64,000 bases of DNA from Escherichia phage UE-S1, in sequence record ON568341.1. One strand, written 5' to 3'. Below, one piece after another: positions 2,898 to 48,875 of this stretch. The notes beneath the pieces were generated by a model. It saw nothing but the letters and a program-made list of their open reading frames with translations, did no database searches and was not told the DNA's origin. The translations under genes and the position numbers were made by a program. The number at the start of each line of letters is the position of its first letter. Within the stretch, counting starts at the first letter, position 1.

Positions 2898-3263
<366 letters not shown>

Positions 3264-4848: not shown

Positions 4849-4864
4849 CAAATAAAGGCACATT

Positions 4865-16693: not shown

Positions 16694-16720
16694 GGGTTGA
16701 CTTAGGTCAACCCTTTTTTT
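16694..16720 (+). terminator. intrinsic terminator
   Basis: GGGTTGACC-TTAG-GTCAACCC hairpin plus T7 run. Confidence 0.7.
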
Positions 16721-29358: not shown

Positions 29359-30000
29359 ATGACTAAGCAAGAAATATTCAAAACATTAATTGACATTTTA
29401 CGTTCATCTAAAACTCGTTGTGCAATGGAGTTTGATATTCCTTACGCTGAACGAGTCATCTTTCCACAAGTAAAAGCGGCAGGTCTTACTTTACTTGGTA
29501 TGGGGATGTACTCTGTAGTAGTTGAACATAAAAACTATCCAGGTCGTGCATTTAAAGTAACCACGTCACGATGGGATGGTTTTCGTGCTTATGCAAAGTA
29601 CTGTATTGATAACACAGGAACTAAGTTTCTTCCTGTAATATACAGTGCAAATGAACAAGGAAACTTTGGATGGTATGAAATGGATAAGTACTACCCTATC
29701 ATTAAACAAAAAAATAATTATGATGACTTTGTTAGTACTAAAATTGGAGATTTGTATTCGTATGCACATGCTGGTCAGTACGCAACTTCAGTGAATGAAC
29801 TGCGTGGAAATTCAGAAGAGATTGCCATTGCAACTGTTGCAGCTAACATAATGAAAGAGTTTCATGGTCGTTTTGTACCAGACATTCATTCCAGTAATGT
29901 GATGATGGATAAAGATGGAAATTTATTCATCACTGACCCTATTTCGTGTGATGTACGTCGAGAAATACCAATCACTGAAGAAGACCCAATTTTTTATTGA
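29359..30000 (+). CDS. protein-kinase-fold protein (putative kinase or phosphotransferase)
   Basis: DIHSSNVMMDKDGNLFITD matches catalytic-loop D..N and DFG-like spacing of eukaryotic-like kinases. Confidence 0.45.
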   Translation: MTKQEIFKTLIDILRSSKTRCAMEFDIPYAERVIFPQVKAAGLTLLGMGMYSVVVEHKNYPGRAFKVTTSRWDGFRAYAKYCIDNTGTKFLPVIYSANEQGNFGWYEMDKYYPIIKQKNNYDDFVSTKIGDLYSYAHAGQYATSVNELRGNSEEIAIATVAANIMKEFHGRFVPDIHSSNVMMDKDGNLFITDPISCDVRREIPITEEDPIFY

Positions 30001-30063
30001 CAGAACTTGTGTTCTGGTGTATATTAAGTGAATTATAAACAAATTGTGACACAGGATTAAATC

Positions 30064-30345
30064 ATGCGTTCATTTGAAAACTTAATAGGTAAACTTCTTT
30101 TATCTGAAATTGAAGAAGACGTTAAGGAATTATGCAAATCAAAAAGTTACATTCATTTGGATGAACTGTTTGTTAAGTACGGAGAGATTAGTTTTAAATC
30201 ATTATTTGTTTTTACTATGAAAGTACATAGTTTAAAGCACTTCGATTTAAGTTATAAAAATGATCAACCAAATCTATATCATATGTATTATCTCAAGAAT
30301 ATAGAAGAAGCTCATGCATTATTTTCTGAATATCTGAAGGTATAA
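30064..30345 (+). CDS. hypothetical protein (93 aa)
   Basis: Track ORF. Confidence 0.5.
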   Translation: MRSFENLIGKLLLSEIEEDVKELCKSKSYIHLDELFVKYGEISFKSLFVFTMKVHSLKHFDLSYKNDQPNLYHMYYLKNIEEAHALFSEYLKV

Positions 30346-30346
30346 A

Positions 30347-30685
30347 ATGGAACAATATTTTGAATTAATTAATAAAGTGTCATTCTATGTAGTGTCATTG
30401 ATGTGGGTTTATTTCATGTTTTGCTACATTATTGCATTCTTCCGATACACTACTTTATATGAACGTATCTATTATGATGCACCGATTTCATTCTTGGTAT
30501 TCTGTGCGTGTACGTGGGGAATATTAGAAGTACTGATATGTGGATATAGTACTGATGAATTAAATCTGGTATCGGTATTGACTGGGTTATCACTTGGCGT
30601 TATGATATCTTTCTTTCCAGTATGGTTGTTCTTTGAGCTGTTCCATCGCATTGATGTATGGCGTTCTAATATCCCTGAAAAATAA
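30347..30685 (+). CDS. small membrane protein, paralogue family A (1 of 3)
   Basis: 3-4 hydrophobic helices; C-terminal tail R.NIPEK. Confidence 0.55.
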   Translation: MEQYFELINKVSFYVVSLMWVYFMFCYIIAFFRYTTLYERIYYDAPISFLVFCACTWGILEVLICGYSTDELNLVSVLTGLSLGVMISFFPVWLFFELFHRIDVWRSNIPEK

Positions 30686-30688
30686 GGA

Positions 30689-31036
30689 TTGATAATGATT
30701 TATTACACTAACGTGTTTGCCTATGCTGTTGCTTGCATTTACATTGTTTACTTCTTATTTGGTGGAGTGCTTTACTTCTTTAAGTACAAAACACTGTTTA
30801 ATAGGATGTATCCAAATCACCCTATCGTAGTTGTACTTTTGATTCTTTCTGTTTCCCAAATAATCGTTGAAACTACAATGGGTATCAGTAGTGTACATTA
30901 TAGCTTCGGTACTATAGTAATTATTACTATGCTTATTGCATACATTTTAGTACTTGGATATGGTATATTTGGTAATGTTGGAATGAAAATGTATCATCGA
31001 ATTAAAACCTTACGTGATAATCTACCGGAGCGTTAA
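30689..31036 (+). CDS. small membrane protein, paralogue family A (2 of 3)
   Basis: Shared FxYxTLxxRxY motif and tail LRDNLPER. Confidence 0.55.
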   Translation: MIMIYYTNVFAYAVACIYIVYFLFGGVLYFFKYKTLFNRMYPNHPIVVVLLILSVSQIIVETTMGISSVHYSFGTIVIITMLIAYILVLGYGIFGNVGMKMYHRIKTLRDNLPER

Positions 31037-31037
31037 T

Positions 31038-31382
31038 ATGTATAATTTAAACCTAATCTCATATATTATAACAACACTGTTTACATTCTATGCCTTTGTT
31101 GGTATAATCCTACTGTACTTTAAATTTTATAAAGTGTTTAACCGTTTCTATCCTTCAATGGAGAATGAGTTTTTCTTTGTGTTGTACGTAGGTTACACAT
31201 TAATGGCTACATGTTTCACTGTAGCCGATGGTGTCATCGGCATTAAAACTGATGCACCAAATGGTAGTACGCTGGTTGCATTTATTCTTACCGGATTCCT
31301 TGCAACTTATATTGCCTTCATTACAACATGGTCAGTAGTTGAATTTCTCTTGCGACTACGTAAGAATATGCCGAATCGATAG
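31038..31382 (+). CDS. small membrane protein, paralogue family A (3 of 3)
   Basis: Track ORF 31014 (GTG) trimmed to ATG after GGAG; tail LRKNMPNR. Confidence 0.5.
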   Translation: MYNLNLISYIITTLFTFYAFVGIILLYFKFYKVFNRFYPSMENEFFFVLYVGYTLMATCFTVADGVIGIKTDAPNGSTLVAFILTGFLATYIAFITTWSVVEFLLRLRKNMPNR

Positions 31383-31391
31383 GAGACATAT

Positions 31392-31646
31392 ATGTTTGCA
31401 TTGCGTAATAAAGACACTAAAGAATTATTATGTATTGATACCGTATGGGATTGTGCGGGTTCAACTACTGTTCTTGAAGAAGGAACTGGTTGTTGTGTGT
31501 TTGTTGTTCAAGATAAGAATATTCTCGAATCATTACTTGCTGAGTTCAATGCTGGTGATAATCCTAATAGTACTGAATACCCTGAGATTATCAATCCAGC
31601 ACCTCCAGGTTCTTATGAAATCCTACCACTATGGGTGTTGAAATAA
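31392..31646 (+). CDS. hypothetical protein (84 aa)
   Basis: Track ORF. Confidence 0.5.
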   Translation: MFALRNKDTKELLCIDTVWDCAGSTTVLEEGTGCCVFVVQDKNILESLLAEFNAGDNPNSTEYPEIINPAPPGSYEILPLWVLK

Positions 31647-32026
31647 TGCGACAAATGTACAAAGTAACCGAGCTAAACAAGCGTCTGGTTAAACAATCTA
31701 TGTTTGAGGATAAAGAGTCTTACTATAACTTTAAACGTGCTGTAGAGGCTGCTATCCACATTCAGAAGCTTAAAGAACGTGGTTTTATTATTCTGGAAAA
31801 TGGTTCGGAAGTTGTAACGGATGACTTTAGTGTAGCGTTTGATGTTTCACCTGATGGCACGCTATCAATGCCCCGCTTAGGAACTGGAAACATGACTGTT
31901 TGGGTTGGCTTCACTATGGGGAATGTACCTGGTACTGTGTACGTAGATGATGCGGAATTGAAAGACAGTTTCAAAAACTTATCTTATCTGGAACCACAAT
32001 ACGCACATGAAATGAATTTATTTTGA
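31646..32026 (+). CDS. hypothetical protein
   Basis: Track ORF 31631 trimmed to ATG overlapping previous stop (TAATG). Confidence 0.45.
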   Translation: MRQMYKVTELNKRLVKQSMFEDKESYYNFKRAVEAAIHIQKLKERGFIILENGSEVVTDDFSVAFDVSPDGTLSMPRLGTGNMTVWVGFTMGNVPGTVYVDDAELKDSFKNLSYLEPQYAHEMNLF

Positions 32027-32027
32027 G

Positions 32028-32055
32028 TTGACAAACACATTCAGTACTGTATAAT
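32028..32055 (+). promoter_or_regulatory. sigma-70-type promoter (TTGACA-16-TATAAT) followed by stem-loop 32066-32083
   Basis: TTGACAAACACATTCAGTACTGTATAAT then GGGATGA-ACTTC-TCATCCC hairpin before RBS. Confidence 0.6.
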
Positions 32056-32102
32056 GTTTATCAAGGGGATGAACTTCTCATCCCTACAATCGAGGAACGA
32101 CC

Positions 32103-32657
32103 ATGATTACTTTTAAGAAAACTGCTAACCACATCCATGAAATCTACATTAACGGTCACAAAGCTGGCCTTCTTCGTTTACTCAGCCATCATCCTGATGT
32201 TACTGTATCTGATAATGAACCTAAAGATTGGCGTGTCTTTTTCTTTGGGAAGTACAGTGATTTTCAAGTATCAAACCTGAAGAACATTCGTTCAGTATGC
32301 ACGTTAACTGAAATTAAAGAAAAGTTAGTAAAAGCATTGAAAACTAATCCAGATGCAGTTCTTCCACCAGATAATTTTGTAGAGAAAGGTTATGCCTTAG
32401 CTCATTTCAAAGATGGCACTATTCAATCTATCAGTACTGCATATGAATATCAATGGACTGAGTACTTCACTTATGGCTCCCGTGAAACTTTGATGGCTTC
32501 ACGTAGTAAATTGGAAGAAGTAATAACTATTATAAATGAACGTGAACGTCATTTATATGATAAACCTGAAATGTGGAGTTCAACTTACATTGACCGTATT
32601 GACTATGTTATTATGTCTCCAATCTTTGACACTGCTTACTATGATTCTTTGAAATAA
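32103..32657 (+). CDS. hypothetical protein (184 aa)
   Basis: Track ORF, GAGGAA RBS. Confidence 0.55.
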   Translation: MITFKKTANHIHEIYINGHKAGLLRLLSHHPDVTVSDNEPKDWRVFFFGKYSDFQVSNLKNIRSVCTLTEIKEKLVKALKTNPDAVLPPDNFVEKGYALAHFKDGTIQSISTAYEYQWTEYFTYGSRETLMASRSKLEEVITIINERERHLYDKPEMWSSTYIDRIDYVIMSPIFDTAYYDSLK

Positions 32658-32668
32658 GGATAACTTAT

Positions 32669-32845
32669 ATGAAACTTCGTACTCGCAATCGTTTGATGGA
32701 TGCACTGTACCACGAACAATGTACATTGAATGACACAAAGCGTCAGTTAATGTATACATATCAGTTACCAGCCCGTGCTGCGAAACAACGTGCCAAAGAA
32801 TTACTAAAAGAAGCTATCGAGTACTGGGAATCTGATTCGTACTAA
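32669..32845 (+). CDS. hypothetical small protein (58 aa, below track cut-off)
   Basis: ATG after AAGGAT; fills gap between flanking genes. Confidence 0.4.
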   Translation: MKLRTRNRLMDALYHEQCTLNDTKRQLMYTYQLPARAAKQRAKELLKEAIEYWESDSY

Positions 32846-32884
32846 TATTACGTGAAATGTCACGTTAATTAATTGAGGCGATAA

Positions 32885-33136
32885 ATGAAAATTTTATTAG
32901 TTCTAATACTACTAGTTGTTTTACCATTTACTTTAGTATCACCTGAACTTGCATGGAATGTGTTTGTGTACTTAGTATGTACTATTGTAGTAAATGGTAT
33001 CTTGTTCTTAGTTCTATTCATAAATGGAATAGGACACGGTGGAGGATGGACCAATACTGCTGATATTGTACATAAAACCACTATGTCTTTATTTGTTGTG
33101 TGGAATTTATTCTGGACTTGGTTTGTGTTCTTCTAA
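32885..33136 (+). CDS. small membrane protein (83 aa)
   Basis: Three hydrophobic helices. Confidence 0.5.
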   Translation: MKILLVLILLVVLPFTLVSPELAWNVFVYLVCTIVVNGILFLVLFINGIGHGGGWTNTADIVHKTTMSLFVVWNLFWTWFVFF

Positions 33137-33145
33137 TTAAAAAAT

Positions 33146-33517
33146 ATGAATATAGATTTGAAAGGTGCAACCCGAACTGTTATTCTCATTGGGGAATACG
33201 CTATCAAGATTCCAACTTTCAAAAGCTGGAAGTTATTCTTAACGGGAATGATAGCTAACCTAAATGAACGTTCGTGGATGCAGTACTCCAATCGTAGTGA
33301 CAGTAGTATCTGTCCTACGTTGTGGTCATCATGTACTGGACTAGTAACTGTACAGAAACGTTGTAAGCCAATACATCATAGGGGTTTATTTTGGGTGGAG
33401 TTGTGTGCTTTAGCATTGAATTCAGAGTTAAGTGCTGACTTCTTCTATTCAGATGCGAAGCCAGAAAACTTTGGGTATCTGGGTGGTAAGTTAGTTAAAC
33501 TTGATTATGGAGATTAA
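33146..33517 (+). CDS. hypothetical protein (123 aa)
   Basis: Track ORF. Confidence 0.5.
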   Translation: MNIDLKGATRTVILIGEYAIKIPTFKSWKLFLTGMIANLNERSWMQYSNRSDSSICPTLWSSCTGLVTVQKRCKPIHHRGLFWVELCALALNSELSADFFYSDAKPENFGYLGGKLVKLDYGD

Positions 33518-33518
33518 T

Positions 33519-33788
33519 ATGTACGCACTGTATAATAAAGAAAAGAAACAATTTGCTAAGGTTGAAATTTCGATTGATACATTTGATATGTTGGAGTACT
33601 GTATTGTAACGGACCCATATGCTAATTTGTATTACGTTCATGATGACACATCAGTACTGCAACGATTGCTTGAGAGTTCAAAAAGTCAATGTCAGGGAAT
33701 CCATGATGGTTCATCCTATGAAACTCCTGAGTGTTCATATGGCTGTCTGGATGGATATGAGATTGTTAAGTTGGGGATCGTTGAATAA
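33519..33788 (+). CDS. hypothetical protein
   Basis: Track ORF 33501 trimmed to ATG after GGAGA. Confidence 0.45.
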   Translation: MYALYNKEKKQFAKVEISIDTFDMLEYCIVTDPYANLYYVHDDTSVLQRLLESSKSQCQGIHDGSSYETPECSYGCLDGYEIVKLGIVE

Positions 33789-33794
33789 AGAAAA

Positions 33795-33827
33795 GGGTTG
33801 ACTTTGGTCAGCCCTTTTTGTTATAAT
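33795..33827 (+). terminator. intrinsic terminator overlapping promoter-like hexamers
   Basis: GGGTTGAC-TTTG-GTCAGCCC plus T5; TTGACT and TATAAT 18 nt apart. Confidence 0.65.
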
Positions 33828-33855
33828 TTTTTCATCGAAACGTGAGGATGAATAC

Positions 33856-34371
33856 ATGACACGCATTAACTTAGTACACGTTAAAGAACTTGCAGACCAA
33901 CATCTGATGGCTGAATATCGTGAACTACCACGTGTATTTGGTGCTGTACGAAAACACGTTCACGCACGTAAGCGTGTACGTGATTTCAAAATTAACAGTA
34001 CTTATCTGTTAGGTTCAGGTCATGTGACCTTCTTTTACGACAAGTTGCTGTACTTACAGAAGCGTCATATCGATATTGTCAACGAATGTTTGCGTCGTGG
34101 GATGAAGATTCAAAATACTGAAGTAAACGACATTAGCAGCTTCCCTGCTGAGTTTTGTAATGACTATGTACCATCGGAGTCAGAGATTAAAATGTCTCGT
34201 GATCGTTTGATTGAGAAGCTCCAGATGAAGCCTACGTGGTATAAGTTTACTGACGTTGAACGTCCACAGTACGTTAAAGATATTCAGGACGTAAGTAGTA
34301 ATATAGAATCTAGTACGGATATGTTAGACGAAATTGAAGAACAAATCAAAAATGAAATGAATAATTATTAA
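33856..34371 (+). CDS. denV: pyrimidine-dimer DNA glycosylase / AP lyase (T4 endonuclease V homologue)
   Basis: N-terminus MTRINL...[33 protein letters not shown]...[10 protein letters not shown] matches recalled T4 DenV, including catalytic Thr2 and Glu23; ~30-residue C-terminal extension. Confidence 0.85.
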
Positions 34372-34409
34372 AGGAAAGGATTGACTTCGGTCACATAAAG
34401 GAACATAAC

Positions 34410-34604
34410 ATGTTATTAGTATATTCAAAGCGTTTCTGGATTTCTTTTATTGTACTATCGCTAATCGGCTTCGGTGTGAGTATGCTCTTTTCGTGGAATG
34501 AATTGGGCACATGGTATTATGAAGTCCCGTGGTACATGAAGATAGCTCCTTGTTACGCGGCTTTGTTCGTATCATTCCTTATTGTTGTCTTCAGCGAGGA
34601 TTAG
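34410..34604 (+). CDS. small membrane protein (64 aa)
   Basis: Two hydrophobic helices. Confidence 0.45.
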   Translation: MLLVYSKRFWISFIVLSLIGFGVSMLFSWNELGTWYYEVPWYMKIAPCYAALFVSFLIVVFSED

Positions 34605-34711
34605 TTGATGTAGTATGTTCTACATCAAAAGTATTTGGATATTTGAGATATAAACATTGACACATGTTCTATCTTTCTGTATTATGTACATCACCAAATG
34701 AGGAATACAAC

Positions 34712-35071
34712 ATGGCATCTTTAAGTGAAATCGCGGAATACAATCCACTAACAATCTCAACAATTCAACGTACAAAAACTTTTTATTTCCGTCCTGTTGA
34801 TGGATGGAAACGTGGAATGAATAGTGACTATCGAGTACTGGAAGATTCACTCATCGAGCGTATCAACTCTGAACTACAGAAGTATGAAGGTGTTAAAGTT
34901 GTACGTTCAACTTCTCGTTATTTTGAGTACTATATTGAGTCTTTAACAGTAAATGAAAACTCATCATCATCTGTGGATAACACTGATATTCTTCGTAATG
35001 CAGTTGGTCTGTTATGCAACATTGCAGAAGAAATGGGATTAACTATCACAACAATGAGTGAAATAGAATAA
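34712..35071 (+). CDS. hypothetical protein
   Basis: Track ORF 34664 trimmed to ATG after GAGGAA. Confidence 0.45.
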   Translation: MASLSEIAEYNPLTISTIQRTKTFYFRPVDGWKRGMNSDYRVLEDSLIERINSELQKYEGVKVVRSTSRYFEYYIESLTVNENSSSSVDNTDILRNAVGLLCNIAEEMGLTITTMSEIE

Positions 35072-35078
35072 CAAAAAA

Positions 35079-35103
35079 GGGTTGACTTTAGTCAGCCCTT
35101 TTT
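35079..35103 (+). terminator. intrinsic terminator (composite with downstream CTATAAT)
   Basis: GGGTTGAC-TTTA-GTCAGCCC plus T5. Confidence 0.65.
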
Positions 35104-35139
35104 GCTATAATCATTTCATCAACTGATGAGGATAACGAA

Positions 35140-35913
35140 ATGAACCGTACAGAGAAAGCACTCCAAATTGAAAAGAACTTCAACTCCATGATGGCAGCAC
35201 TGGAATGTCTTCTTGATACACAAACTAACTCGATCAACTCGCTGATCGTTTCTGGTAAAGGTGGTGTTGGTAAAACTTACAATGTTGACCAACGGTTACA
35301 GAAAGCTGATGACAACTTTGAAATCGACTACAAGAAAATCAGTGGTAAAGTAACTACTGTAGGTCTGTACGAAGCACTGTATCGTTCACGTCATGCTGCT
35401 TCAGTACTGTTACTTGACGACGTTGATATCTTCTCTGATGAAACGAATATTGATTTGCTTAAAGCTGTATTGGATACTTCTGAGAAGCGTGTAGTGTCTT
35501 ATGCTACATCTGCGAAGTACCTGGAACAGCAGGGTATCCCTAAACAGTTTGAATTCCGTGGTAAAGTAATCTTTCTGACTAACAAAAATCTGTCACAGAT
35601 TGCTAAAGGTAAAAGCAGTTTAGCACCACACATTGATGCACTGATTACTCGTAGTATCTTTGTTGACCTGCAACTGTTCACCAACGAAGAAGTTATGATT
35701 CACATTGAGAATATCATGAACAAAACTAACATCCTTGAGAACAATGGTGTTAACAAAAATGGTTGTAAAGCAATTTTGAACTGGATGTTGAGTAATGAAG
35801 ATCGTCTGCGTTCACCTTCACTGCGTATGCCAGTACTGATCGCTGGACTGTATAATAAATTCCCATATGATTGGGAGTCAATGGCAGAGAATATGTTCCT
35901 TGAGAAAATTTAA
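35140..35913 (+). CDS. P-loop NTPase (Walker A and B motifs)
   Basis: SGKGGVGKTY Walker A and LLLDDVD Walker B. Confidence 0.55.
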   Translation: MNRTEKALQIEKNFNSMMAALECLLDTQTNSINSLIVSGKGGVGKTYNVDQRLQKADDNFEIDYKKISGKVTTVGLYEALYRSRHAASVLLLDDVDIFSDETNIDLLKAVLDTSEKRVVSYATSAKYLEQQGIPKQFEFRGKVIFLTNKNLSQIAKGKSSLAPHIDALITRSIFVDLQLFTNEEVMIHIENIMNKTNILENNGVNKNGCKAILNWMLSNEDRLRSPSLRMPVLIAGLYNKFPYDWESMAENMFLEKI

Positions 35914-35966
35914 TTTCCATATTGACAGTACTAACAATGTGTAGTATTATACACTGGAGACACCTG

Positions 35967-36308
35967 ATGCGTATATTTTTTGAATCTAATATAATGCTTG
36001 GTATTACACTGATATACATGTTTGTATTCTTGTTTTATCATTCAATTGTAATTAGTCTTTGGTATTTTAAAAGGAAAATGGTTTTTAAATTATATTCGTA
36101 TGATAATGTATTCTTAGTTGTATATAGTATCATACAAGGTGGATTTGTTCTATTTGGTGTTATGACGTATGTGATTTATAGATTACAAATTGATAACACA
36201 CCATACATTACACAGTATGTTGTGTTCACAGGACTAATCGTATGGTTGTTGGTGTGTATCATGTATTTCATAATTAAAGCTCGTGATAGAATTAAAGGGG
36301 AGTTCTAA
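35967..36308 (+). CDS. small membrane protein, paralogue family B (1 of 8)
   Basis: Track ORF trimmed to ATG after GGAGA; tail ARDRIKGEF. Confidence 0.5.
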   Translation: MRIFFESNIMLGITLIYMFVFLFYHSIVISLWYFKRKMVFKLYSYDNVFLVVYSIIQGGFVLFGVMTYVIYRLQIDNTPYITQYVVFTGLIVWLLVCIMYFIIKARDRIKGEF

Positions 36309-36646
36309 TGTTAGAATTTTTTAAATCAGATGTGATGCTTAGTATTACATTGATTTATATGTTTGGGTTTTTATTTTATCATATACTAGTTGTAGTTCTA
36401 TGGTATTTTAAAAAGAAAATAGTTTTCAAACTGTATCCACCTAGTAATATTTTATTGTTTCTTTACACACTTATTCAAGGTATGTTTGTGATTGTTGGTG
36501 TTATCACTCACTTAATTTATTGTACTAATCCACATTTAAACTCGATAACACAATATGTTGTTTTCTTTGGGTTGTTCATTTGGTTAGTTGTATACTTAAT
36601 CCATCTCATTATTCATGGTAGAGATAAAATTCGCGGAGACTTCTAA
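36308..36646 (+). CDS. small membrane protein, paralogue family B (2 of 8)
   Basis: Highly similar to previous (ITLIYMFxFLFYH...WYFKRK); tail GRDKIRGDF; TAATG coupling. Confidence 0.55.
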   Translation: MLEFFKSDVMLSITLIYMFGFLFYHILVVVLWYFKKKIVFKLYPPSNILLFLYTLIQGMFVIVGVITHLIYCTNPHLNSITQYVVFFGLFIWLVVYLIHLIIHGRDKIRGDF

Positions 36647-36993
36647 TGTTTGAAGCTTATCTTGAGTTTTTAAGGAGTAGTCCAGTTGCACATTCACTTG
36701 CAGGGATTATTCTAACAACTTATGTAACATTTTGGGTAGTTATGTTTATAGGATGGTATTTTAAACGACAATTCTATAAACGTAATGTTGAAGATTTTAT
36801 GAATTCTGCAATTAATCAATCGTTGTTTGCATCAACATTTATTGCATGTATTGTAGCAACACTCACAGGAAAGGTACTACCAGCTTTTTCCGCAGTTTAC
36901 GGTACACTTGGGATGATATGTTTAACTTTTATATTGACCATTAAAATTTGTTGTGTTATGATTGAACTTCGAAACAAGATACCGGAGGAATGA
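36646..36993 (+). CDS. small membrane protein, paralogue family B (3 of 8)
   Basis: Hydrophobic helices, WYFKRQ motif, tail LRNKIPEE. Confidence 0.55.
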   Translation: MFEAYLEFLRSSPVAHSLAGIILTTYVTFWVVMFIGWYFKRQFYKRNVEDFMNSAINQSLFASTFIACIVATLTGKVLPAFSAVYGTLGMICLTFILTIKICCVMIELRNKIPEE

Positions 36994-37328
36994 TGGAGTA
37001 CTTTATTGATTTACTACCGTGGTATATGAAAGTTAGTACTTTGTACTATATTATTAGTGCTGGATTCTATTTCCTGATGTGGTTCTTTAAACGACCAATT
37101 TCAGTATTCATCTCTGACAACCTACTGCAATTAAAATTACACGCATGGTTTGGTATGTCCATGATTATGCCAATTATTCATTACTCGATGATTAGTAATG
37201 GTTTTCGTTCTAGTGGTGAGCCAGTTGTAATTGTATTTTATTGGGGTTCAACTATAGTATATGTCGGTTTTCTATTGTTCCCGATCATTCATAAATTACG
37301 TGCTAAAGTTCCTGATGCGAGGTACTAA
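36990..37328 (+). CDS. small membrane protein, paralogue family B (4 of 8)
   Basis: WFFKRP motif, tail LRAKVPDARY. Confidence 0.55.
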   Translation: MMEYFIDLLPWYMKVSTLYYIISAGFYFLMWFFKRPISVFISDNLLQLKLHAWFGMSMIMPIIHYSMISNGFRSSGEPVVIVFYWGSTIVYVGFLLFPIIHKLRAKVPDARY

Positions 37329-37642
37329 TGGATATAGTAACATTGATTTACACGTTGTATTCATTCTATTTTATTATGTGTTGGGTTGGATTTGTATTTG
37401 TACTCAAGATGTTTGATTATGTTGAAAGACAGATAAAAGATTTTTGTATTCCTTTTATCGGTTCAACCATTATTAGTGTTTCTTGTGTGTATTTTTTGGT
37501 GTTTGATCCACCAGATAACACTGCGATGATTGACTTCATGTTACTACCAACCACTATTATTTTTTTATGTAGTCTGATGCCACCTATTAGTCGTGGATTG
37601 ACTGAATTTAGACGCAAACAAAAGCGTAAAAGAGGGATGTAA
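37328..37642 (+). CDS. small membrane protein, paralogue family B (5 of 8)
   Basis: Hydrophobic; basic tail RRKQKRKRGM. Confidence 0.5.
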   Translation: MDIVTLIYTLYSFYFIMCWVGFVFVLKMFDYVERQIKDFCIPFIGSTIISVSCVYFLVFDPPDNTAMIDFMLLPTTIIFLCSLMPPISRGLTEFRRKQKRKRGM

Positions 37643-38010
37643 TGGAAATTGCTCTTATTATCTTAACTGCTATGCTGTTTATTAGTACTGTGGTTATAAT
37701 TGGTAAATTCTTTTGTGTATCATTTTTAGAAACGGTATACGATGAAATTGCTGATGATTATGAATTACAAGCCGGATTTTTTATTACGTATTGGCTTAGT
37801 TTATTTTGTCTAGTCATTGCTTGGATTTTGCATATCTTTAAATGGGGTATGGTAGATGGTGATCCTGTCATGGGAATTATTGTTCTAGTGTTTGGTATCC
37901 TTGGTGGTGCAGTGCATAATCTGATGGTTATCTGGCAAACTGTTCAATATGTTTTGGTTCCCTATTTTGAAAAGATGCACAGTACAATTAAAAAACGTAA
38001 ACGAGGTTAG
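37642..38010 (+). CDS. small membrane protein, paralogue family B (6 of 8)
   Basis: Hydrophobic; basic tail IKKRKRG. Confidence 0.5.
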   Translation: MEIALIILTAMLFISTVVIIGKFFCVSFLETVYDEIADDYELQAGFFITYWLSLFCLVIAWILHIFKWGMVDGDPVMGIIVLVFGILGGAVHNLMVIWQTVQYVLVPYFEKMHSTIKKRKRG

Positions 38011-39480: not shown

Positions 39481-40626
39481 TTATTTTTTCCAAGGAAGTA
39501 ACGAAGTTGGAATCTTGATAGGTATATTTGATGCAGCAACATCAGGAAAATTTGCATCTCCACAAACATACAAATTATCGATTTCGTCAATCAATAATGT
39601 ATAGTTGTAACTTCTACAAAAACCGCTTAAGCCTCTTCCCTCTAATGCAGATAAATTCATTTCAGTGAATTGAGTTATATATGTTTCATTTGAACCAACA
39701 CCACATTGACCATTAGCATTTATACCACAAGTAAGCAATTTATTATTGTTTTGAATTACACATGATGGTCCAGCAAGGTTCGTACCTAGTTCACCTACAA
39801 CATTAACTTCACCTTTTAATGATAAATTTTGGATCACTGTACTCATAGGGACACGCGATGTATTTCCAACACCTGCTTGTCCTGAGCCATTAGTGGATGC
39901 AACTTTAACAGTACCGTCATTAAGAAAAATATAAGATGTTTCGATGGTATTAACTGCTTGTGTAGCTGTTGTTATTGTCGTATCCTGCTTGAATTTAAGT
40001 ACATTTGTTGTTGTTGAACCAGATATAAATGTAGCACCTGCGTACCAATAGGTTCCATCTTGAAGTACTAAACCAGTACTTCTAATTGAACACCCTGCAC
40101 TGCGAACATTTTCTATATGACTATATGTAAAGGTTGATACGATTGAAGATTCACCATTACCGAACACCCCACCAGTACCTGCACCACAGAAAAACCATTT
40201 ACCGTTTTTCAAAAATACACGCATACAAGCAGAAATAACCACACTATCAATATCACTTGCAGCTACACCAAAATCGGTAAAGAAATGAGTTATATCAATC
40301 CAATTACCACCAGTATTTGATGGGAGATGGGGAATTACAACTCTAGTCCCTGTGTACCAGATTGTATCATCATCTTTAATAACAAGAGTACCTTGAACAC
40401 CACCCCAATACCTTGTTACATTTGTATTAACAAGCCTCCACTCAGTAGATGATTCAGTGGAGCCATTACCACCTTGACCATAAGATGATGAGCCGTGCCA
40501 GTATAAATTTCCATTTTTATCTAAATAAAATTTTGCATCAGCCGAACATTGCAATCTGTATTTGAATACGGTTTTTGGTGCTGGTGCAATATTTGCATAT
40601 TTTAGCATTCTACCAAAAGGTAACAT
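39481..40626 (-). CDS. RCC1-like beta-propeller protein with conserved MLPFGRM N-terminus (array member 9, most downstream)
   Basis: N-terminus MLPFGRMLKYANIAP; repeats such as GSSSYGQGGNG, CGAGTGGVFGNG, CGINANGQCGVG. Confidence 0.7.
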   Translation of the reverse strand: MLPFGRMLKYANIAPAPKTVFKYRLQCSADAKFYLDKNGNLYWHGSSSYGQGGNGSTESSTEWRLVNTNVTRYWGGVQGTLVIKDDDTIWYTGTRVVIPHLPSNTGGNWIDITHFFTDFGVAASDIDSVVISACMRVFLKNGKWFFCGAGTGGVFGNGESSIVSTFTYSHIENVRSAGCSIRSTGLVLQDGTYWYAGATFISGSTTTNVLKFKQDTTITTATQAVNTIETSYIFLNDGTVKVASTNGSGQAGVGNTSRVPMSTVIQNLSLKGEVNVVGELGTNLAGPSCVIQNNNKLLTCGINANGQCGVGSNETYITQFTEMNLSALEGRGLSGFCRSYNYTLLIDEIDNLYVCGDANFPDVAASNIPIKIPTSLLPWKK

Positions 40627-40665
40627 AATTTTTCTCCTTCATTCATTATACTGTATTTAATCCAA

Positions 40666-40693
40666 TTAAGAAAAGCTAGTATCAAGTACTGGC
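40666..40693 (-). terminator. inter-cassette hairpin plus T-run
   Basis: GCTAGTA-TCAAG-TACTGGC with T-rich tract on minus strand. Confidence 0.5.
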
Positions 40694-40704
40694 ATTTAAA
40701 AGAA

Positions 40705-41880
40705 TCAAATTGTCGGAAGTGGGAATTCTTTCATCACCGATGAACTGTTTGCTGCAATATTATCAGGAGATTTACCAGCGTAGTATAATTTATTATTAAT
40801 AAACATATATAGCGTTGCATCGTTCCCTGCTACAAGAGAATTACTTTTCTTAAAAATAACCCCTGGGGGTAAAATAGCTTCAACAAATGAACCTGATTCT
40901 CGTGTTGAATTGTTTGCCAATTGACCATTATTATTATAACCAGTACTATAAATTTTACCTGAACTATAATACACAAGACCACGTGTACTAATGTTTTCTA
41001 TACGAATGAATTCACTATCGTCCGGTACTGTAGTTGATAGAACTGGGTATAACTTATAAGCTGATGTTACATTATTATTACCCAATTGACCATAACCTTG
41101 AAAGCCTAGTGCATACATAGGACATGATTCTGGTGTACCTTTTGTTATAATACCAATATAATTCGAACTACAAAAAATATCCACTGCTTCTACAACATTT
41201 GTACCCTTATATTGAACCCAAGGAAATACATATGATTGTTGTTTGCCATTACCCAAAACACCGGAAGTTGTTGTACCTGTACGCCACATTGTATCATCAA
41301 GTTTAATAATCCAGTTAGCAGTTGTTATAGTTGAACAGAATTTTTTAACATTATCAACCAAGTATGTAAATTTATTATAATATGATGCAGTGTTTATTCC
41401 AAATTTAGCACCAGTATTGTCACCTAACAAATATAAACTATTATCTGTACCTAAAATCAAAACATAATCATGACCCACGTATATCTTTTTGATTTTTGAA
41501 ATACCAAATTGTGTAAAATAGCTGGTACATTCAGTGAATATTGTTACATGATTTGATGTATTATTACCTAGCCATTTATCTAAACCACTATAAAAGAACC
41601 TATCATCATTTGTGCGTATTAGACAAAAAGAATTATTTGTACTGCACCAGAAATCTTTGACATTACTATATATTTTTGTCCATTCAGTTACTTGATTAGT
41701 ATGACCTAAACCAAAAATTCCACCATTTTGTAGTCCCATAGCCCATATTGAACCATTTTTATCAAGAAGCATTGTGCATGTAAATGAATACCCACACGCT
41801 GGAGTAACTAATTTAACAAAATTGGGAATATATGGTAAAACTTTATTCCCATAATTCACCATTCTTCCAAAAGGTAACAT
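40705..41880 (-). CDS. RCC1-like beta-propeller protein with conserved MLPFGRM N-terminus (array member 8)
   Basis: MLPFGRMVNYGN; repeats GYGQLGNNN, NNNGQLANNS. Confidence 0.7.
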   Translation of the reverse strand: MLPFGRMVNYGNKVLPYIPNFVKLVTPACGYSFTCTMLLDKNGSIWAMGLQNGGIFGLGHTNQVTEWTKIYSNVKDFWCSTNNSFCLIRTNDDRFFYSGLDKWLGNNTSNHVTIFTECTSYFTQFGISKIKKIYVGHDYVLILGTDNSLYLLGDNTGAKFGINTASYYNKFTYLVDNVKKFCSTITTANWIIKLDDTMWRTGTTTSGVLGNGKQQSYVFPWVQYKGTNVVEAVDIFCSSNYIGIITKGTPESCPMYALGFQGYGQLGNNNVTSAYKLYPVLSTTVPDDSEFIRIENISTRGLVYYSSGKIYSTGYNNNGQLANNSTRESGSFVEAILPPGVIFKKSNSLVAGNDATLYMFINNKLYYAGKSPDNIAANSSSVMKEFPLPTI

Positions 41881-41916
41881 ATTCTCTCCTTATTCATTAT
41901 AATATATATTTAATAC

Positions 41917-41948
41917 AAATAATAATGCCAGTACTCAAATACTGGCAT
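41917..41948 (-). terminator. inter-cassette hairpin plus T-run
   Basis: ATGCCAGTA-CTCAA-ATACTGGCAT. Confidence 0.5.
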
Positions 41949-41953
41949 TATTA

Positions 41954-43144
41954 TTACAATTGTCTAGGTGTATCCAGAACATATCTATTTGTGCTAGGAC
42001 CGCCATCATCATAAGTTCCGGTTGAATATATATTTTTCATATCAGCAGTTAGAAATGTACGATACGAACCTCTATATATTTTTATTTTATCATACATATT
42101 ATATGTAATTTGTGCTGGCATTGGACATATAGTAAATCTTCCAATAGTCCCCACTGAACCTACCCCCAATGAGCCAGCATAACTACTCGCATTTAAACCA
42201 GTTGCATATACACCAGAACTCGTAACTAGTATACTAGATTGTGATGGGTATCCAGTATGAATTGAATACAAAGTTCCAGGTGGTAATGTCGTACTATTTC
42301 TCCCTAATACAGCAAGTGCCGAACTGGATGTGGTATTATTACCCCATGCACCATTACTTGCTAAACCACCAACTAGGAACTGACGTACACCCGTACTTGG
42401 ATTTTCCACCAAAGCACTGACTGAACCCATTGAGCATCCAGTGTATTGTAACGTTTTTGTGTATGTTGTACTTGGCTGATATAAAGTATATTCATTATAT
42501 AAAGTCCATGTAGTACTGGAACTTATACCGGATGTACCACCACCAATATATAAATTATTTTGTTTATCAAACAACATTACACAGTTATTTGTTGACATTA
42601 TTTGTGCAATATCAACATTAGGTGTTACTGCTTTTACAAATGAACCATCTGTTATTTGTTGAGTTTTTCCAGTACCATCAGCGAATTGTCTAGCCCCACT
42701 CCAACCAGTACTCCATATTGTATTATTATCCATTAAGAAAGTAAACCACGTAGTACCTGCATACATCTGTTTAATTGAAGTACTTGAACTTTGTTTGTAC
42801 AAATTTTCAATATATTGGTTATAACTTAAAAATGATGTAGTACTGGTTGGTAAACCAATATGACTACCAAATCCACAATAGAAATAATTTAAGTCATTAT
42901 CTTGAACTAACAAAGTTCCTTGTGTGATCCAGCAATCATTAACGTTTTCTCTAATTAATGTCCATGTTCTTAATGCAGTGTTGTTTCCTCTCCCAAACTG
43001 CCCAAAACTATTATTACCTCGTGCATATAGTTGACCATCAGTATAAAGTACAACAACATCAGTATCGGTTGTTAGTATTTTCTTAATTTGAAGTGGGATA
43101 GGTACAATATTCCCGTACTTAACCATTCTTGCAAAAGGTAACAT
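41954..43144 (-). CDS. conserved-N-terminus family protein, beta-propeller-like (array member 7)
   Basis: MLPFARMVKYGNIVP; G/S/T/N-rich with NSFGQFGRGNN repeat. Confidence 0.65.
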   Translation of the reverse strand: MLPFARMVKYGNIVPIPLQIKKILTTDTDVVVLYTDGQLYARGNNSFGQFGRGNNTALRTWTLIRENVNDCWITQGTLLVQDNDLNYFYCGFGSHIGLPTSTTSFLSYNQYIENLYKQSSSTSIKQMYAGTTWFTFLMDNNTIWSTGWSGARQFADGTGKTQQITDGSFVKAVTPNVDIAQIMSTNNCVMLFDKQNNLYIGGGTSGISSSTTWTLYNEYTLYQPSTTYTKTLQYTGCSMGSVSALVENPSTGVRQFLVGGLASNGAWGNNTTSSSALAVLGRNSTTLPPGTLYSIHTGYPSQSSILVTSSGVYATGLNASSYAGSLGVGSVGTIGRFTICPMPAQITYNMYDKIKIYRGSYRTFLTADMKNIYSTGTYDDGGPSTNRYVLDTPRQL

Positions 43145-43180
43145 ATTTTCCTCCTTTATTCATTATACTATATTTAATCA

Positions 43181-43208
43181 AAAAGAAAAGCCAGTATCAA
43201 GTACTGGC
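43181..43208 (-). terminator. inter-cassette hairpin plus T-run
   Basis: GCCAGTA-TCAAG-TACTGGC; minus strand followed by TTTTCTTTT. Confidence 0.55.
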
Positions 43209-43215
43209 CTATATT

Positions 43216-43953
43216 TTAGACTGAATTGTTAGGATAATATCTCCCCCTTCCCCATATTATTCGCACAGCACCACCACCAGCAGCCGTATAAGAAGAATTA
43301 TCCCATATACTACCACCACCACCATACCTCTTACCAGCACCACCACTACCAGCACCACCATTATATGAACCACCGTAGCTACCACCAATACCATTAGCAC
43401 CTTGAACAATGATACCAGTACCACCACCCGTACCAATGAACGAGGTACTATAGAATGTACCACCCCCACCGCCGCCACCAGCACCATTTTCACCAGTGAT
43501 TGCATCTCCGTTACCACCTTTACCAGTGTAGCCACCAGCACCACCACCAATGACTGCACCACCACTTACACCAGTGTTGCCACCATTACCACCACCATCA
43601 TTAATAGCGTTAGCAGCTTTTCCACCTAGTCCACCAACCGTATATGCACCAGTGAAGCTAACACATAGTTTTTCAGTTCCACGATATAAACCGTTTTCAA
43701 CTGCTGTAGTAGTGTTGGGATGTGTAAGAGAAACACTTAAGTACTCACCACCAGAAACCGGAATATTATTACGCCACGATAAGCCGCCACCAGCACCACG
43801 TTGACCACCCGGCGAAATAACACATACTGATATTTCGGTAACGCCAGCAGGAACTGTAAATTGTGTTGTTCCTATTGTCGTGATTAATTGTTCACCATGT
43901 GGCTTATATTCAATTTTATTCCCGAACTTAACCATTCTTCCAAAAGGTAACAT
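43216..43953 (-). CDS. conserved-N-terminus family protein with glycine-rich body (array member 6)
   Basis: MLPFGRMVKFGN then long GGxGG tracts. Confidence 0.65.
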   Translation of the reverse strand: MLPFGRMVKFGNKIEYKPHGEQLITTIGTTQFTVPAGVTEISVCVISPGGQRGAGGGLSWRNNIPVSGGEYLSVSLTHPNTTTAVENGLYRGTEKLCVSFTGAYTVGGLGGKAANAINDGGGNGGNTGVSGGAVIGGGAGGYTGKGGNGDAITGENGAGGGGGGGTFYSTSFIGTGGGTGIIVQGANGIGGSYGGSYNGGAGSGGAGKRYGGGGSIWDNSSYTAAGGGAVRIIWGRGRYYPNNSV

Positions 43954-43990
43954 AATTCCCTCCTTTATTTGTTATACTATATTTAATACA

Positions 43991-44018
43991 AAAAGAAAAG
44001 CCAGTACTCAGTACTGGC
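43991..44018 (-). terminator. inter-cassette hairpin plus T-run
   Basis: GCCAGTACT-CA-GTACTGGC. Confidence 0.55.
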
Positions 44019-44024
44019 ATAATG

Positions 44025-45167: not shown

Positions 45168-45203
45168 AATTCCCTCCCTTATTCATTATAATATATTTAA
45201 TAC

Positions 45204-45234
45204 AAAAAAGAAAAGCCAGTACTTGAGTACTGGC
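45204..45234 (-). terminator. inter-cassette hairpin plus T-run
   Basis: GCCAGTACT-TG-AGTACTGGC. Confidence 0.55.
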
Positions 45235-45240
45235 ATTATG

Positions 45241-46350: not shown

Positions 46351-46387
46351 AACTAAAATCTCCATATAATAATTATAATGTATTTAC

Positions 46388-46420
46388 AAAAAAATACCAG
46401 CACATATTTCAGTACTGGTA
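46388..46420 (-). terminator. inter-cassette hairpin plus T-run
   Basis: TACCAG..AGTACTGGTA stem with T7 on minus strand. Confidence 0.5.
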
Positions 46421-46425
46421 TAATG

Positions 46426-47607: not shown

Positions 47608-47642
47608 AATAAAATCTCCGTAATTAAATTATATAGTATTTA

Positions 47643-47676
47643 CAAAAAATACCAGTACATATTTCAGTACTGACCT
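47643..47676 (-). terminator. inter-cassette hairpin plus T-run
   Basis: CAGTAC-loop-GTACTG palindrome with T-run. Confidence 0.5.
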
Positions 47677-47680
47677 ATTA

Positions 47681-48802: not shown

Positions 48803-48837
48803 ATTTTCCTCCTTTATTCATTATACTATATTTAATA

Positions 48838-48869
48838 CAAAAAGAAATGCCAGTATCAAGTACTGGCAT
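48838..48869 (-). terminator. inter-cassette hairpin plus T-run
   Basis: ATGCCAGTA-TCAAG-TACTGGCAT. Confidence 0.55.
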
Positions 48870-48875
48870 ATTAAT

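What the first reader, a model, noticed from the sequence alone, without database searches (positions are those of the whole stretch)
33856..34371. T4 endonuclease V homologue with a C-terminal extension
The first ~135 residues align by eye at high identity with T4 DenV as I recall it, including the N-terminal Thr2 nucleophile and Glu23. This is the one confident functional anchor in the window and points to a T4-type lineage. The protein is ~30 residues longer at the C-terminus than the 138-aa T4 enzyme, ending in an acidic tail.
Basis: established knowledge. Interest (0 to 1): 0.45.

Follow-up and report, generated by a model that had tools for sequence, protein, structure and literature searches.

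The report
Jumbo-phage DenV UV-repair enzyme, acidic tail
This is an ordinary, already annotated UV-damage repair gene (T4 endonuclease V type) in a 121Q-like jumbo coliphage. Its only unusual feature is a short acidic tail that some sister phages have and others lack.

Summary
ORF 33856-34371 (+) encodes 171 aa whose first 131 residues align without gaps to T4 endonuclease V (66% identity, E=6e-55). Thr2, Arg3, Arg22, Glu23, Arg26, Arg117 and Lys121 are all kept. The predicted fold superposes on 2END (TM 0.93).

The window is not a T-even phage. It is an Asteriusvirus jumbo phage (121Q/PBECO4 group, about 93% nt identity), where the same 171-aa protein is already annotated as endonuclease V (121Q gp217).

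The C-terminal extension is real: 33 aa beyond T4 and about 27 aa beyond tail-less sister alleles. It has a fast-evolving Ser/Asn/Asp linker (pN/pS about 1) followed by a conserved acidic amphipathic helix, E-x-Q-I-K-x-E-M-N. That motif recurs in three jumbo-phage DenV clades, each with tail-less relatives. The tail (net -7) cancels the core's charge (+6).

No other protein in the window, in IMG/VR or in 1.8 billion representative proteins carries the motif. AlphaFold does not dock the tail onto the core.

The core function, a CPD glycosylase/AP lyase, is secure by homology. The tail's role (partner docking or tuning of DNA binding, versus a neutral recombination by-product) is unresolved. Low interest; already known gene.

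The parts
33856..34371 (+). denV-like gene, 171 codons plus TAA stop: pyrimidine-dimer DNA glycosylase/AP lyase (T4 endonuclease V orthologue; equivalent to 121Q gp217)
33856..34287 (+). Catalytic core, codons 1-144. Residues 1-131 align to T4 EndoV. Residues 132-144 ([13 protein letters not shown]) are the C-terminal end shared with the tail-less 144-147-aa alleles of RaK2-like phages. Core net charge about +6, pI 9.4.
   Evidence: pN/pS 0.10 over codons 1-137
34288..34326 (+). Linker, codons 145-157 ([13 protein letters not shown]). It is Ser/Asn/Asp-rich and variable in length and sequence among relatives: absent in P0003/P0004, 4 aa shorter in ph0011, longer and unalignable in P0008 and XbC2.
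   Evidence: pN/pS 1.03; the equivalent stretch in P0008 is predicted disordered
34327..34368 (+). Conserved terminal acidic amphipathic helix, codons 158-171 ([14 protein letters not shown]). The motif is E-x-Q-I-K-x-E-M-N.
   Evidence: Nearly invariant in 8 Asteriusvirus alleles. Kept in P0008, P0009 and XbC2. Hydrophobic moment 0.50 against 0.20+-0.10 in shuffles.
33790..33827 (+). Composite hairpin terminator plus sigma-70-like promoter directly upstream of denV. -35 TTGACT (33798-33803) lies inside the stem, followed by an 18-nt spacer with TG, then -10 TATAAT (33822-33827). It is PeSL-like.
   Evidence: The hairpin core GGGTTGACTTnGGTCAGCCC occurs 7 times on the + strand of the window against 0 expected. 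Compare PeSLs in PMC4122927.
33844..33848 (+). Shine-Dalgarno GAGGA, 7 nt before the ATG
   Evidence: read directly from the sequence
34378..34394 (+). Degenerate copy of the same hairpin module (GGATTGACTTCGGTCAC) directly after the denV stop. Phage EC.P1 has a complete hairpin/promoter at this position.
34258..34263 (+). Mosaic breakpoint, codons 135/136. DNA homology between the long (tailed) and short (144-145 aa) Asteriusvirus denV alleles ends here.
   Evidence: In Salmonella phage SD-2_S15, DenV is fused to the next gene at the same point.

Best explanation
The gene encodes a working orthologue of T4 endonuclease V (DenV) in an Asteriusvirus (121Q-like) jumbo coliphage.

Core mechanism, inferred by homology to the T4 enzyme. 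After removal of Met1, the free alpha-amino group of Thr2 attacks C1' of the 5' pyrimidine of a cis-syn cyclobutane dimer and forms a Schiff base. Glu23 assists catalysis. The glycosyl bond is cut and the strand is nicked by beta-elimination. Arg3, Arg22, Arg26, Arg117 and Lys121 hold the kinked DNA backbone. The gene has its own sigma-70-type promoter and ribosome-binding site, so it is probably read by host RNA polymerase early in infection.

The extra C-terminus is a flexible, fast-evolving linker that carries a conserved 14-residue acidic amphipathic helix. My preferred reading of the tail is that it is a tethered interaction peptide. It would either dock the enzyme to an unidentified partner protein, or transiently compete with DNA for the basic face of the enzyme and so tune its salt-sensitive scanning of undamaged DNA. 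This part is inference only; I put it at about 0.4, split roughly 60:40 between the partner and the DNA-competition versions. The tail is not essential, because sister phages carry tail-less alleles.

What is shown: homology, residue conservation, fold, and tail anatomy and distribution. What is inferred: enzyme activity, expression timing and any tail function.
For: Identity:
- E=5.8e-55 to T4 EndoV, ungapped over 131 aa.
- Pfam PF03013 above its cut-off and PHROG 1183.
- All catalytic and DNA-contact residues are kept. T2, R3, R22, E23, R26 and R117 are invariant, and K121 nearly invariant (90% or more), in 83 homologues.
- AF2 model with pLDDT 92 superposes on 2END at TM 0.93, rmsd 1.3 A.
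- Core pN/pS is 0.10.
- Orthologues at 93-96% identity are annotated as endonuclease V in 121Q and other phages.
- The family has been reported in subgroup 2.2 jumbo phages (PMC7824862), in the RaK2-like jumbo phage CBB (PMC5259590) and in the Asteriusvirus Sharanji (PMC11895373).

Expression: an 11/12 promoter match with extended -10 at 33798-33827, and GAGGA 7 nt upstream of the ATG.

Tail as a functional module:
- The motif E-x-Q-I-K-x-E-M-N is retained in three separate DenV clades whose linkers cannot be aligned.
- The 158-aa alleles P0003 and P0004 delete exactly the linker and keep the motif in frame.
- The helix is strongly amphipathic: only 0.3% of shuffles reach its hydrophobic moment.
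- The tail's -7 cancels the core's +6.
- In P0008, AF2 gives a disordered linker plus a low-confidence terminal helix. That is the usual signature of a peptide that folds on a partner rather than a cis-packed element.
Against: - No activity data exist for this protein or any jumbo-phage DenV.
- Tyr131 and Tyr132 of the T4 aromatic segment WYKYY are Phe and Thr here.
- Tail-less alleles of 144-147 aa exist in close sisters such as PBECO4, SHEFM2K, Turkey3, CMSTMSU and RaK2, so the tail is dispensable.
- The linker evolves neutrally.
- The motif's conservation within Asteriusvirus cannot be separated from recent common descent, because it shows no synonymous changes either. Across genera only 1-2 synonymous differences are seen.
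- No second protein carries the motif: none in the window, none in IMG/VR beyond chance hits, and none in 1.84 billion representative proteins. There is therefore no sign of a shared docking motif such as the clamp-binding tails of T4 gp43, gp33 and gp55.
- Other DenV homologues have unrelated tails that are basic (P0018) or neutral (P0013). This shows that the 3' end simply tolerates additions.
Confidence: 0.85

Rival explanations
1. The enzyme is DenV, but the tail is a functionally neutral by-product. The 3' end of denV lies at a recombination hotspot in a hyperplastic, cassette-shuffled region. Different phages have simply acquired different read-through sequences, which are tolerated because the C-terminus points away from the active site.
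For: - DNA homology between long and short alleles breaks inside the gene at codon about 135.
- SD-2_S15 has DenV fused in frame at that same point to the next gene.
- The flanks differ in nearly every Asteriusvirus genome, with HNH or homing endonuclease genes, a methyltransferase gene and small ORFs inserted.
- Unrelated acidic, basic and neutral tails occur in other homologues.
- Linker pN/pS is about 1.
- Tail-less alleles are common.
- The tail has no homologue anywhere else.
Against: - The terminal motif is kept residue for residue in three clades, while the adjacent linker has diverged beyond alignment and varies by 0-21 residues.
- An in-frame deletion removes only the linker (P0003 and P0004).
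- The amphipathic periodicity is non-random.
- Junk read-through would be expected to decay as P0013 appears to have done.
Confidence: 0.45
2. The tail is specifically a cis-acting autoinhibitory DNA mimic. The acidic helix folds back on the basic DNA-binding groove, like the acidic tails of HMGB1 or T7 gp2.5, and is displaced by damaged DNA. This would raise specificity for damaged DNA.
For: The charges balance almost exactly: core +6, tail -7, and pI falls from 9.4 to 6.6. From established knowledge, T4 EndoV's search for dimers is electrostatic and salt-sensitive. A second, non-homologous acidic tail ending in an aromatic residue occurs in P0030.
Against: - AF2 does not fold the tail back on the core. 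It models one straight helix 138-169 in this protein, and a low-confidence detached helix in P0008.
- The conserved positions are Q, I, K, M and N rather than the acidic ones. This points to a shape-specific contact rather than generic charge mimicry.
- A basic tail exists in P0018.
Confidence: 0.15
3. The ORF is a decayed or non-functional denV copy, or the extension is an annotation or sequencing artefact such as a lost stop codon in this one genome.
For: None found. It was considered only because the tail is absent from T4 and from many relatives.
Against: The same tail-bearing reading frame is present in 18 independently sequenced Escherichia (Asteriusvirus-group) phage records, 171 aa in those translated and 167 aa in ph0011, and a 179-aa tailed version is present in XbC2. 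The core is under strong purifying selection, pN/pS 0.10. All catalytic residues are intact. A promoter and ribosome-binding site are present.
Confidence: 0.02

Closest known systems
Bacteriophage T4 endonuclease V (DenV; PDB 2END, 1VAS; Pfam PF03013 Pyr_excise)
   Same: 66% identity over residues 1-131 without gaps. The catalytic Thr2/Glu23 pair and the basic DNA-contact residues are the same. The all-alpha fold is the same (TM 0.93). Both have an early-type promoter context.
   Different: The C-terminus after residue 131 is replaced: T4 has YGKAIYA, this protein has [13 protein letters not shown] plus a 27-aa acidic tail. Y131 is Phe and Y132 is Thr. The overall pI is 6.6 instead of about 9.4. 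The host genome is a jumbo phage of about 350 kb, not a T-even phage.
Escherichia phage 121Q gp217 (YP_009101804.1) and its Asteriusvirus orthologues (vB_Ec-M-J, TH47, Sharanji and others), annotated 'endonuclease V N-glycosylase UV repair enzyme'
   Same: Same 171-aa architecture including the tail, at 93-96% identity, and the same upstream genomic neighbourhood.
   Different: Only point differences, for example I143 against M, L157 against F and N166 against D. Nothing is functionally distinct.
Tail-less DenV alleles of RaK2-like jumbo phages (PBECO4 gp309, SHEFM2K, Turkey3, CMSTMSU at 144-145 aa; RaK2 DenV at 147 aa; CBB_519 at 144 aa)
   Same: Same core, 66-92% identity, and the same '...WYKFTxVExPxYYxxM' ending.
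   Different: They stop at residues 144-147 and have no linker or acidic helix. In Asteriusvirus the DNA diverges from codon about 135 on, so this is a 3'-end replacement rather than a nonsense mutation.
Disordered terminal tails of eukaryotic DNA glycosylases (UNG2, NEIL1, NTH1) and acidic C-terminal tails of phage and bacterial ssDNA-binding proteins (T7 gp2.5, T4 gp32, E. coli SSB). This is an analogy from established knowledge only.
   Same: A globular DNA-binding core, then a flexible linker, then a short conserved acidic or amphipathic terminal peptide. In those systems the tails recruit partners or modulate DNA binding.
   Different: There is no sequence similarity. No partner is known here. 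The motif does not fit the PIP box (QxxLxxFF), the T4 clamp-binding consensus or the SSB tip (DDDIPF). Function is untested.

Membership tests
T4 endonuclease V / pyrimidine dimer DNA glycosylase (Pfam PF03013 Pyr_excise) | Significant sequence match to the family profile, above the curated threshold | tested here: met
   PF03013 at 54.4 bits against a cut-off of 23, E=1.7e-14. PHROG 1183 at 7e-59. T4 EndoV PDB chains at E=6e-55. NCBIfam has no model that matched.
T4 endonuclease V / pyrimidine dimer DNA glycosylase (Pfam PF03013 Pyr_excise) | N-terminal Met-Thr: Thr2 alpha-amino nucleophile, exposed after Met removal | tested here: met
   The sequence starts MTRINL. T2 is invariant in 83 homologues. 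Actual Met removal is not testable here.
T4 endonuclease V / pyrimidine dimer DNA glycosylase (Pfam PF03013 Pyr_excise) | Catalytic Glu23 | tested here: met
   E23 lies in the identical context AEYRELPRV and is invariant.
T4 endonuclease V / pyrimidine dimer DNA glycosylase (Pfam PF03013 Pyr_excise) | Basic DNA-backbone contacts Arg3, Arg22, Arg26, Arg117, Lys121 | tested here: met
   All five are present at the same positions. R3, R22, R26 and R117 are invariant and K121 is conserved at 90% or more.
T4 endonuclease V / pyrimidine dimer DNA glycosylase (Pfam PF03013 Pyr_excise) | C-terminal aromatic segment W128-Y129-K130-Y131-Y132, implicated in dimer-specific binding in T4 | tested here: inconclusive
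   The segment here is W-Y-K-F-T. The first three residues are kept, Y131 is the conservative Phe, and Y132 is Thr. Only Y129 is invariant across the family, so positions 131 and 132 are probably not defining.
T4 endonuclease V / pyrimidine dimer DNA glycosylase (Pfam PF03013 Pyr_excise) | Single-domain all-alpha EndoV fold | tested here: met
   The AF2 model has mean pLDDT 92.3. Foldseek against 2END gives E=7e-16, TM(target) 0.93 and rmsd 1.3 A over 133 columns.
T4 endonuclease V / pyrimidine dimer DNA glycosylase (Pfam PF03013 Pyr_excise) | CPD-specific N-glycosylase plus AP-lyase activity; rescue of UV sensitivity | not testable with these tools
   This needs biochemistry or genetics. No paper found reports an assay of a jumbo-phage DenV.
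   Window 30000-38000 is 87-93% identical at DNA level to Asteriusvirus jumbo phages only (43 records, genomes of about 350-386 kb). The taxonomy of the hits is Caudoviricetes; Asteriusvirus.
Clamp-binding / shared C-terminal docking motifs (T4 gp43/gp33/gp55 type; PIP box) | The same terminal motif present on several proteins of the phage, or a match to a known consensus | tested here: not met
   No other ORF in the window matches a tail HMM; the one 14-bit hit is internal to a membrane ORF. An IMG/VR pattern scan finds only 121Q DenV plus chance hits. A search of 1.84 billion representative proteins gives 0 hits. QIKNEMNNY does not fit QxxLxxFF, by direct reading.

The most novel reading that the evidence does not exclude
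The conserved acidic amphipathic helix, tethered by a disposable linker, is a genuine regulatory or docking peptide. It would be a phage counterpart of the disordered tails of eukaryotic DNA glycosylases. It would either couple the CPD glycosylase to a replisome, repair or host protein, or act as an intramolecular DNA competitor that tunes the enzyme's one-dimensional search. Repeated gain and loss among jumbo phages would then reflect adaptation to the host or to genome size.
Probability: 0.35. Interest if true: 0.35.

Novelty: already known. Interest (0 to 1): 0.15.

Why it matters
It matters little for discovery. DenV is one of the best-understood DNA repair enzymes, and this exact architecture is already deposited and annotated in 121Q-like phages. 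The practical value is threefold:
- It identifies the window as an Asteriusvirus jumbo phage.
- It shows that DenV is not a reliable marker of the T-even lineage.
- It documents a small natural experiment, tailed versus tail-less alleles in near-identical genomes. This could be used cheaply to ask whether charge-neutralising tails alter the classic electrostatic DNA-scanning behaviour of EndoV.

Tried and rejected
1. Shared docking motif. I built an HMM of the last 19 residues from six tails and searched all 571 stop-to-stop ORFs of the window. Only DenV matched, plus one internal 14-bit chance match (FDYVERQIKDF) in a membrane ORF at 37316-37639.

2. A back-translated pattern for E-x-Q-I-K-x-E-M-N scanned over IMG/VR gave 6 loci. 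Only 121Q is DenV. The rest are chance matches, either very short ORFs or unrelated proteins.

3. phmmer of the 30-aa tail against 1.84 billion representative proteins gave 0 hits at E<=0.001. This search is underpowered for so short a query, and the 50%-identity cluster representative of DenV may itself be tail-less.

4. dN/dS on the terminal motif within Asteriusvirus is uninformative, because there is no synonymous variation either. Across genera there are only 1-2 synonymous differences.

5. A cis-docked tail is not supported by either AF2 model. Model coordinates could not be inspected, so contacts were not measured.

6. A PIP-box or T4 clamp-motif reading of QIKNEMNNY was rejected by direct comparison with the consensus.

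7. The tail is not a package with the downstream 64-aa membrane ORF (34410-34604, equivalent to 121Q gp218). BF17, ph0011, EC.P1 and XbC2 carry the tail with different downstream genes.

8. NCBIfam gave no match.

9. Literature searches found no paper discussing a DenV C-terminal extension.

Full report
**Observation.** The window has an ATG-to-TAA ORF at 33856..34371 on the + strand, 171 codons. A GAGGA Shine-Dalgarno sequence lies 7 nt upstream. The product starts MTRINL. It matches Pfam PF03013 (pyrimidine dimer DNA glycosylase) at 54.4 bits against a cut-off of 23, and PHROG 1183 'endonuclease V N-glycosylase UV repair enzyme' at 7e-59.

Against all PDB chains, the only hits are the six T4 endonuclease V entries. 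The best is 2END at E=5.8e-55, with residues 1-131 aligned to 1-131 without a gap. That is 86/131 = 66% identity. Thr2, Arg3, His16, Arg22, Glu23, Arg26, Arg117, Lys121, Trp128, Tyr129 and Lys130 are all in place; Tyr131 is Phe and Tyr132 is Thr. In an alignment of 83 homologues, T2, R3, R22, E23, R26 and R117 are invariant.

An AlphaFold2 model has mean pLDDT 92.3. It superposes on 2END with TM 0.93 and rmsd 1.3 A. The protein is 33 residues longer than T4's 138, and its last 27 residues carry 8 acidic and 1 basic residue.

**What the window is.** The gene is not in a T-even phage. tblastn finds DenV homologues in 1,099 phage records. The closest, at 93-96% identity over all 171 residues, are E. 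coli jumbo phages of 350-380 kb: vB_Ec-M-J, TH47, Ecwhy_1, 121Q, Sharanji, G17 and others.

Eight kilobases around the gene are 87-93% identical at DNA level to the same genomes, classified as Asteriusvirus. In 121Q the orthologue is gp217, annotated 'endonuclease V N-glycosylase UV repair enzyme' and also 171 aa.

The literature already lists EndoV in a subset of 'subgroup 2.2' jumbo phages (PMC7824862), in the RaK2-like phage CBB (PMC5259590) and in Sharanji (PMC11895373). CBB's core replication proteins are only 25-31% identical to T4's (PMC5259590). A DenV at 66% is therefore much closer to T4 than the rest of the genome is. By inference, this reflects gene exchange among enterobacterial phages or unusually strong constraint, and it makes DenV a poor lineage marker.

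**Context.** Directly upstream lies a 13-bp-stem hairpin followed by a T-run (33790-33819). The stem contains a TTGACT -35 hexamer. An 18-nt spacer with TG and a perfect TATAAT follow, ending at 33827.

The hairpin core GGGTTGACTTnGGTCAGCCC occurs seven times on the + strand of the window against none expected, always between small + strand ORFs. These composite terminator/promoter modules look like the PeSLs that mediate cassette shuffling in the hyperplastic regions of T4-like phages (PMC4122927, PMC2839356).

This neighbourhood differs in almost every Asteriusvirus genome. HNH or homing endonuclease genes, a methyltransferase gene and assorted small ORFs come and go. The neighbouring ORFs have no Pfam function, apart from a weak AAA hit for 35140-35913. 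I infer that denV is an early gene read by host sigma-70 RNA polymerase, as in T4.

**Anatomy of the tail.** Comparison with relatives splits the C-terminus into three parts.
- Residues 132-144 ([13 protein letters not shown]). This stretch replaces T4's YGKAIYA and is shared, as xVExPxYYxxM(I/L), with the 144-147-aa DenV proteins of PBECO4, SHEFM2K, Turkey3, CMSTMSU, RaK2 and CBB.
- Residues 145-157 ([13 protein letters not shown]), a Ser/Asn/Asp-rich linker.
- Residues 158-171 ([14 protein letters not shown]).

The linker is absent in the 158-aa proteins P0003 and P0004, and 4 residues shorter in ph0011. It is longer and unalignable in P0008 (176 aa) and in XbC2/P0009 (179 aa). All of these nevertheless end in E-x-Q-I-K-x-E-M-N-(NY/LE).

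Among eight Asteriusvirus alleles, pN/pS is 0.10 for the core and 1.03 for the linker. The terminal 14 codons are invariant apart from N/D166.

The last 17 residues form a strongly amphipathic helix, with hydrophobic moment 0.50 against 0.20+-0.10 in shuffles; 0.3% of shuffles reach that value. The tail's charge of -7 cancels the core's +6 and moves the pI from 9.4 to 6.6.

AF2 models the whole stretch 138-169 as one helix in this protein, with pLDDT 82-87. In P0008, with its longer linker, AF2 gives a helix 138-153, a disordered segment 154-162 (pLDDT<50) and a low-confidence terminal helix 163-172. It does not fold the tail back on the core in either model.

**Distribution and origin.** Only 19 of the 1,099 phage records with a DenV hit encode the tail: 18 Escherichia phage records (Asteriusvirus-group jumbo phages) and XbC2. 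On a neighbour-joining tree of the core, the tailed proteins fall in three separate clades, each with tail-less sisters. This means either an old tail lost repeatedly, or 3' ends exchanged by recombination.

Within Asteriusvirus the long and short alleles are near-identical up to codon about 135 and then unrelated at DNA level. The difference is therefore a 3'-end replacement, not a nonsense mutation.

In Salmonella phage SD-2_S15, DenV is fused in frame at the same point to the downstream gene (P0005, 242 aa). Other homologues carry unrelated tails: acidic and aromatic in P0030, basic in P0018, neutral in P0013. The 3' end of denV clearly tolerates additions.

**Tests of tail function.** I looked for the motif on any other protein, as would be expected for a shared docking peptile such as the clamp-binding tails of T4 gp43, gp33 and gp55. 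All three searches were negative.
- A tail HMM against all ORFs of the window found nothing real.
- A degenerate DNA pattern over IMG/VR found only 121Q DenV plus chance hits.
- phmmer of the tail against 1.84 billion representative proteins found nothing.

The motif does not fit the PIP-box or the T4 clamp consensus. The tail is not linked to the downstream 64-aa membrane ORF (34410-34604), because other tailed alleles have different neighbours.

**Mechanism.** The core almost certainly works as T4 EndoV does. This is established knowledge for the family and was not tested here.
1. The Thr2 alpha-amino group attacks C1' of the 5' pyrimidine of a cyclobutane dimer.
2. A Schiff-base intermediate forms, assisted by Glu23.
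3. The strand is cleaved by beta-elimination.
4. The conserved basic residues grip the kinked duplex.

For the tail I commit, at about 0.4, to a tethered interaction peptide. This is more likely a docking helix for an unidentified partner than a cis DNA mimic, for two reasons. The conserved positions are Q, I, K, M and N rather than the acidic ones, and AF2 does not dock the tail in cis. The main rival, at about 0.45, is that the tail is a tolerated by-product of recombination at a mosaic junction. The data here cannot separate the two.

**Comparison and novelty.** The protein passes every testable membership criterion for the EndoV/Pyr_excise family. Only the Y131/Y132 positions of the aromatic segment differ, and those are not conserved family-wide. 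The gene, including its tail, is already present and annotated in public Asteriusvirus genomes, so the finding is 'already known'. The tail has not been discussed in the papers I could search and is a minor undescribed variant.

**Verdict.** Observation confirmed. Interpretation correct for the gene and overstated for the lineage. Interest low (0.15).

Noticed in passing
window 39481-50024, minus strand: Nine tandem ORFs of about 245-396 aa: 39481-40626, 40705-41880, 41954-43144, 43216-43953, 44025-45167, 45241-46365, 46426-47607, 47681-48802 and 48876-50024. The three I tested all hit RCC1-like beta-propeller Pfam models (PF25390, PF13540, PF00415). This looks like a large paralogue array of RCC1-like proteins in a phage.
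   Followed up: partly
window 15733-16686 (+): A 317-aa ORF with Sigma70_r2 and Sigma70_r3 domains, so a phage-encoded sigma-70 family factor. It is followed at 16694-16713 by one of the hairpin/promoter modules.
   Followed up: no
window 16694, 25162, 27958, 29298, 33795, 35079, 63702 (+ strand): A repeated 20-nt hairpin core, GGGTTGACTTnGGTCAGCCC, with an embedded -35 TTGACT. At the 33795 and 35079 copies a TATAAT -10 follows; the other copies were not checked. There are 7 copies on the + strand against 0 expected. It resembles the PeSL composite terminator/promoter cassettes of T4-like phages (PMC4122927), here in a jumbo phage.
   Followed up: partly
window 71-145, 2918-3009, 3017-3091, 3182-3256, 4775-4849 (+): Five tRNA genes: Ser-ACT (an unusual anticodon call), Met-CAT, Asn-GTT, Thr-TGT, and one with a 4-base 'tcat' anticodon loop call of undetermined identity.
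   Followed up: no
P0005 (Salmonella phage SD-2_S15, OR699181.1 near 158533-158937): A 242-aa protein in which the DenV core is fused in frame at residue about 136 to the homologue of the downstream window gene 34664/34712-35071 (PHROG 32140). The junction is the same as the long/short allele breakpoint. It could be a real deletion fusion or an assembly error.
   Followed up: no
window 34410-34604 (+): A 64-aa hydrophobic ORF (two predicted membrane-like segments, equivalent to 121Q gp218) lies between denV and the next conserved gene. It is present in 121Q, JNE01 and this window but absent from PBECO4, SHEFM2K and EC.P1. It has no PHROG family.
   Followed up: partly
P0030 (metagenomic DenV homologue, 181 aa): It carries a different, non-homologous C-terminal tail (…HDEFSEVADATWNEYYQENHF) that is also strongly acidic and ends in an aromatic residue. 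This may be convergence on acidic tails in jumbo-phage DenV proteins.
   Followed up: no
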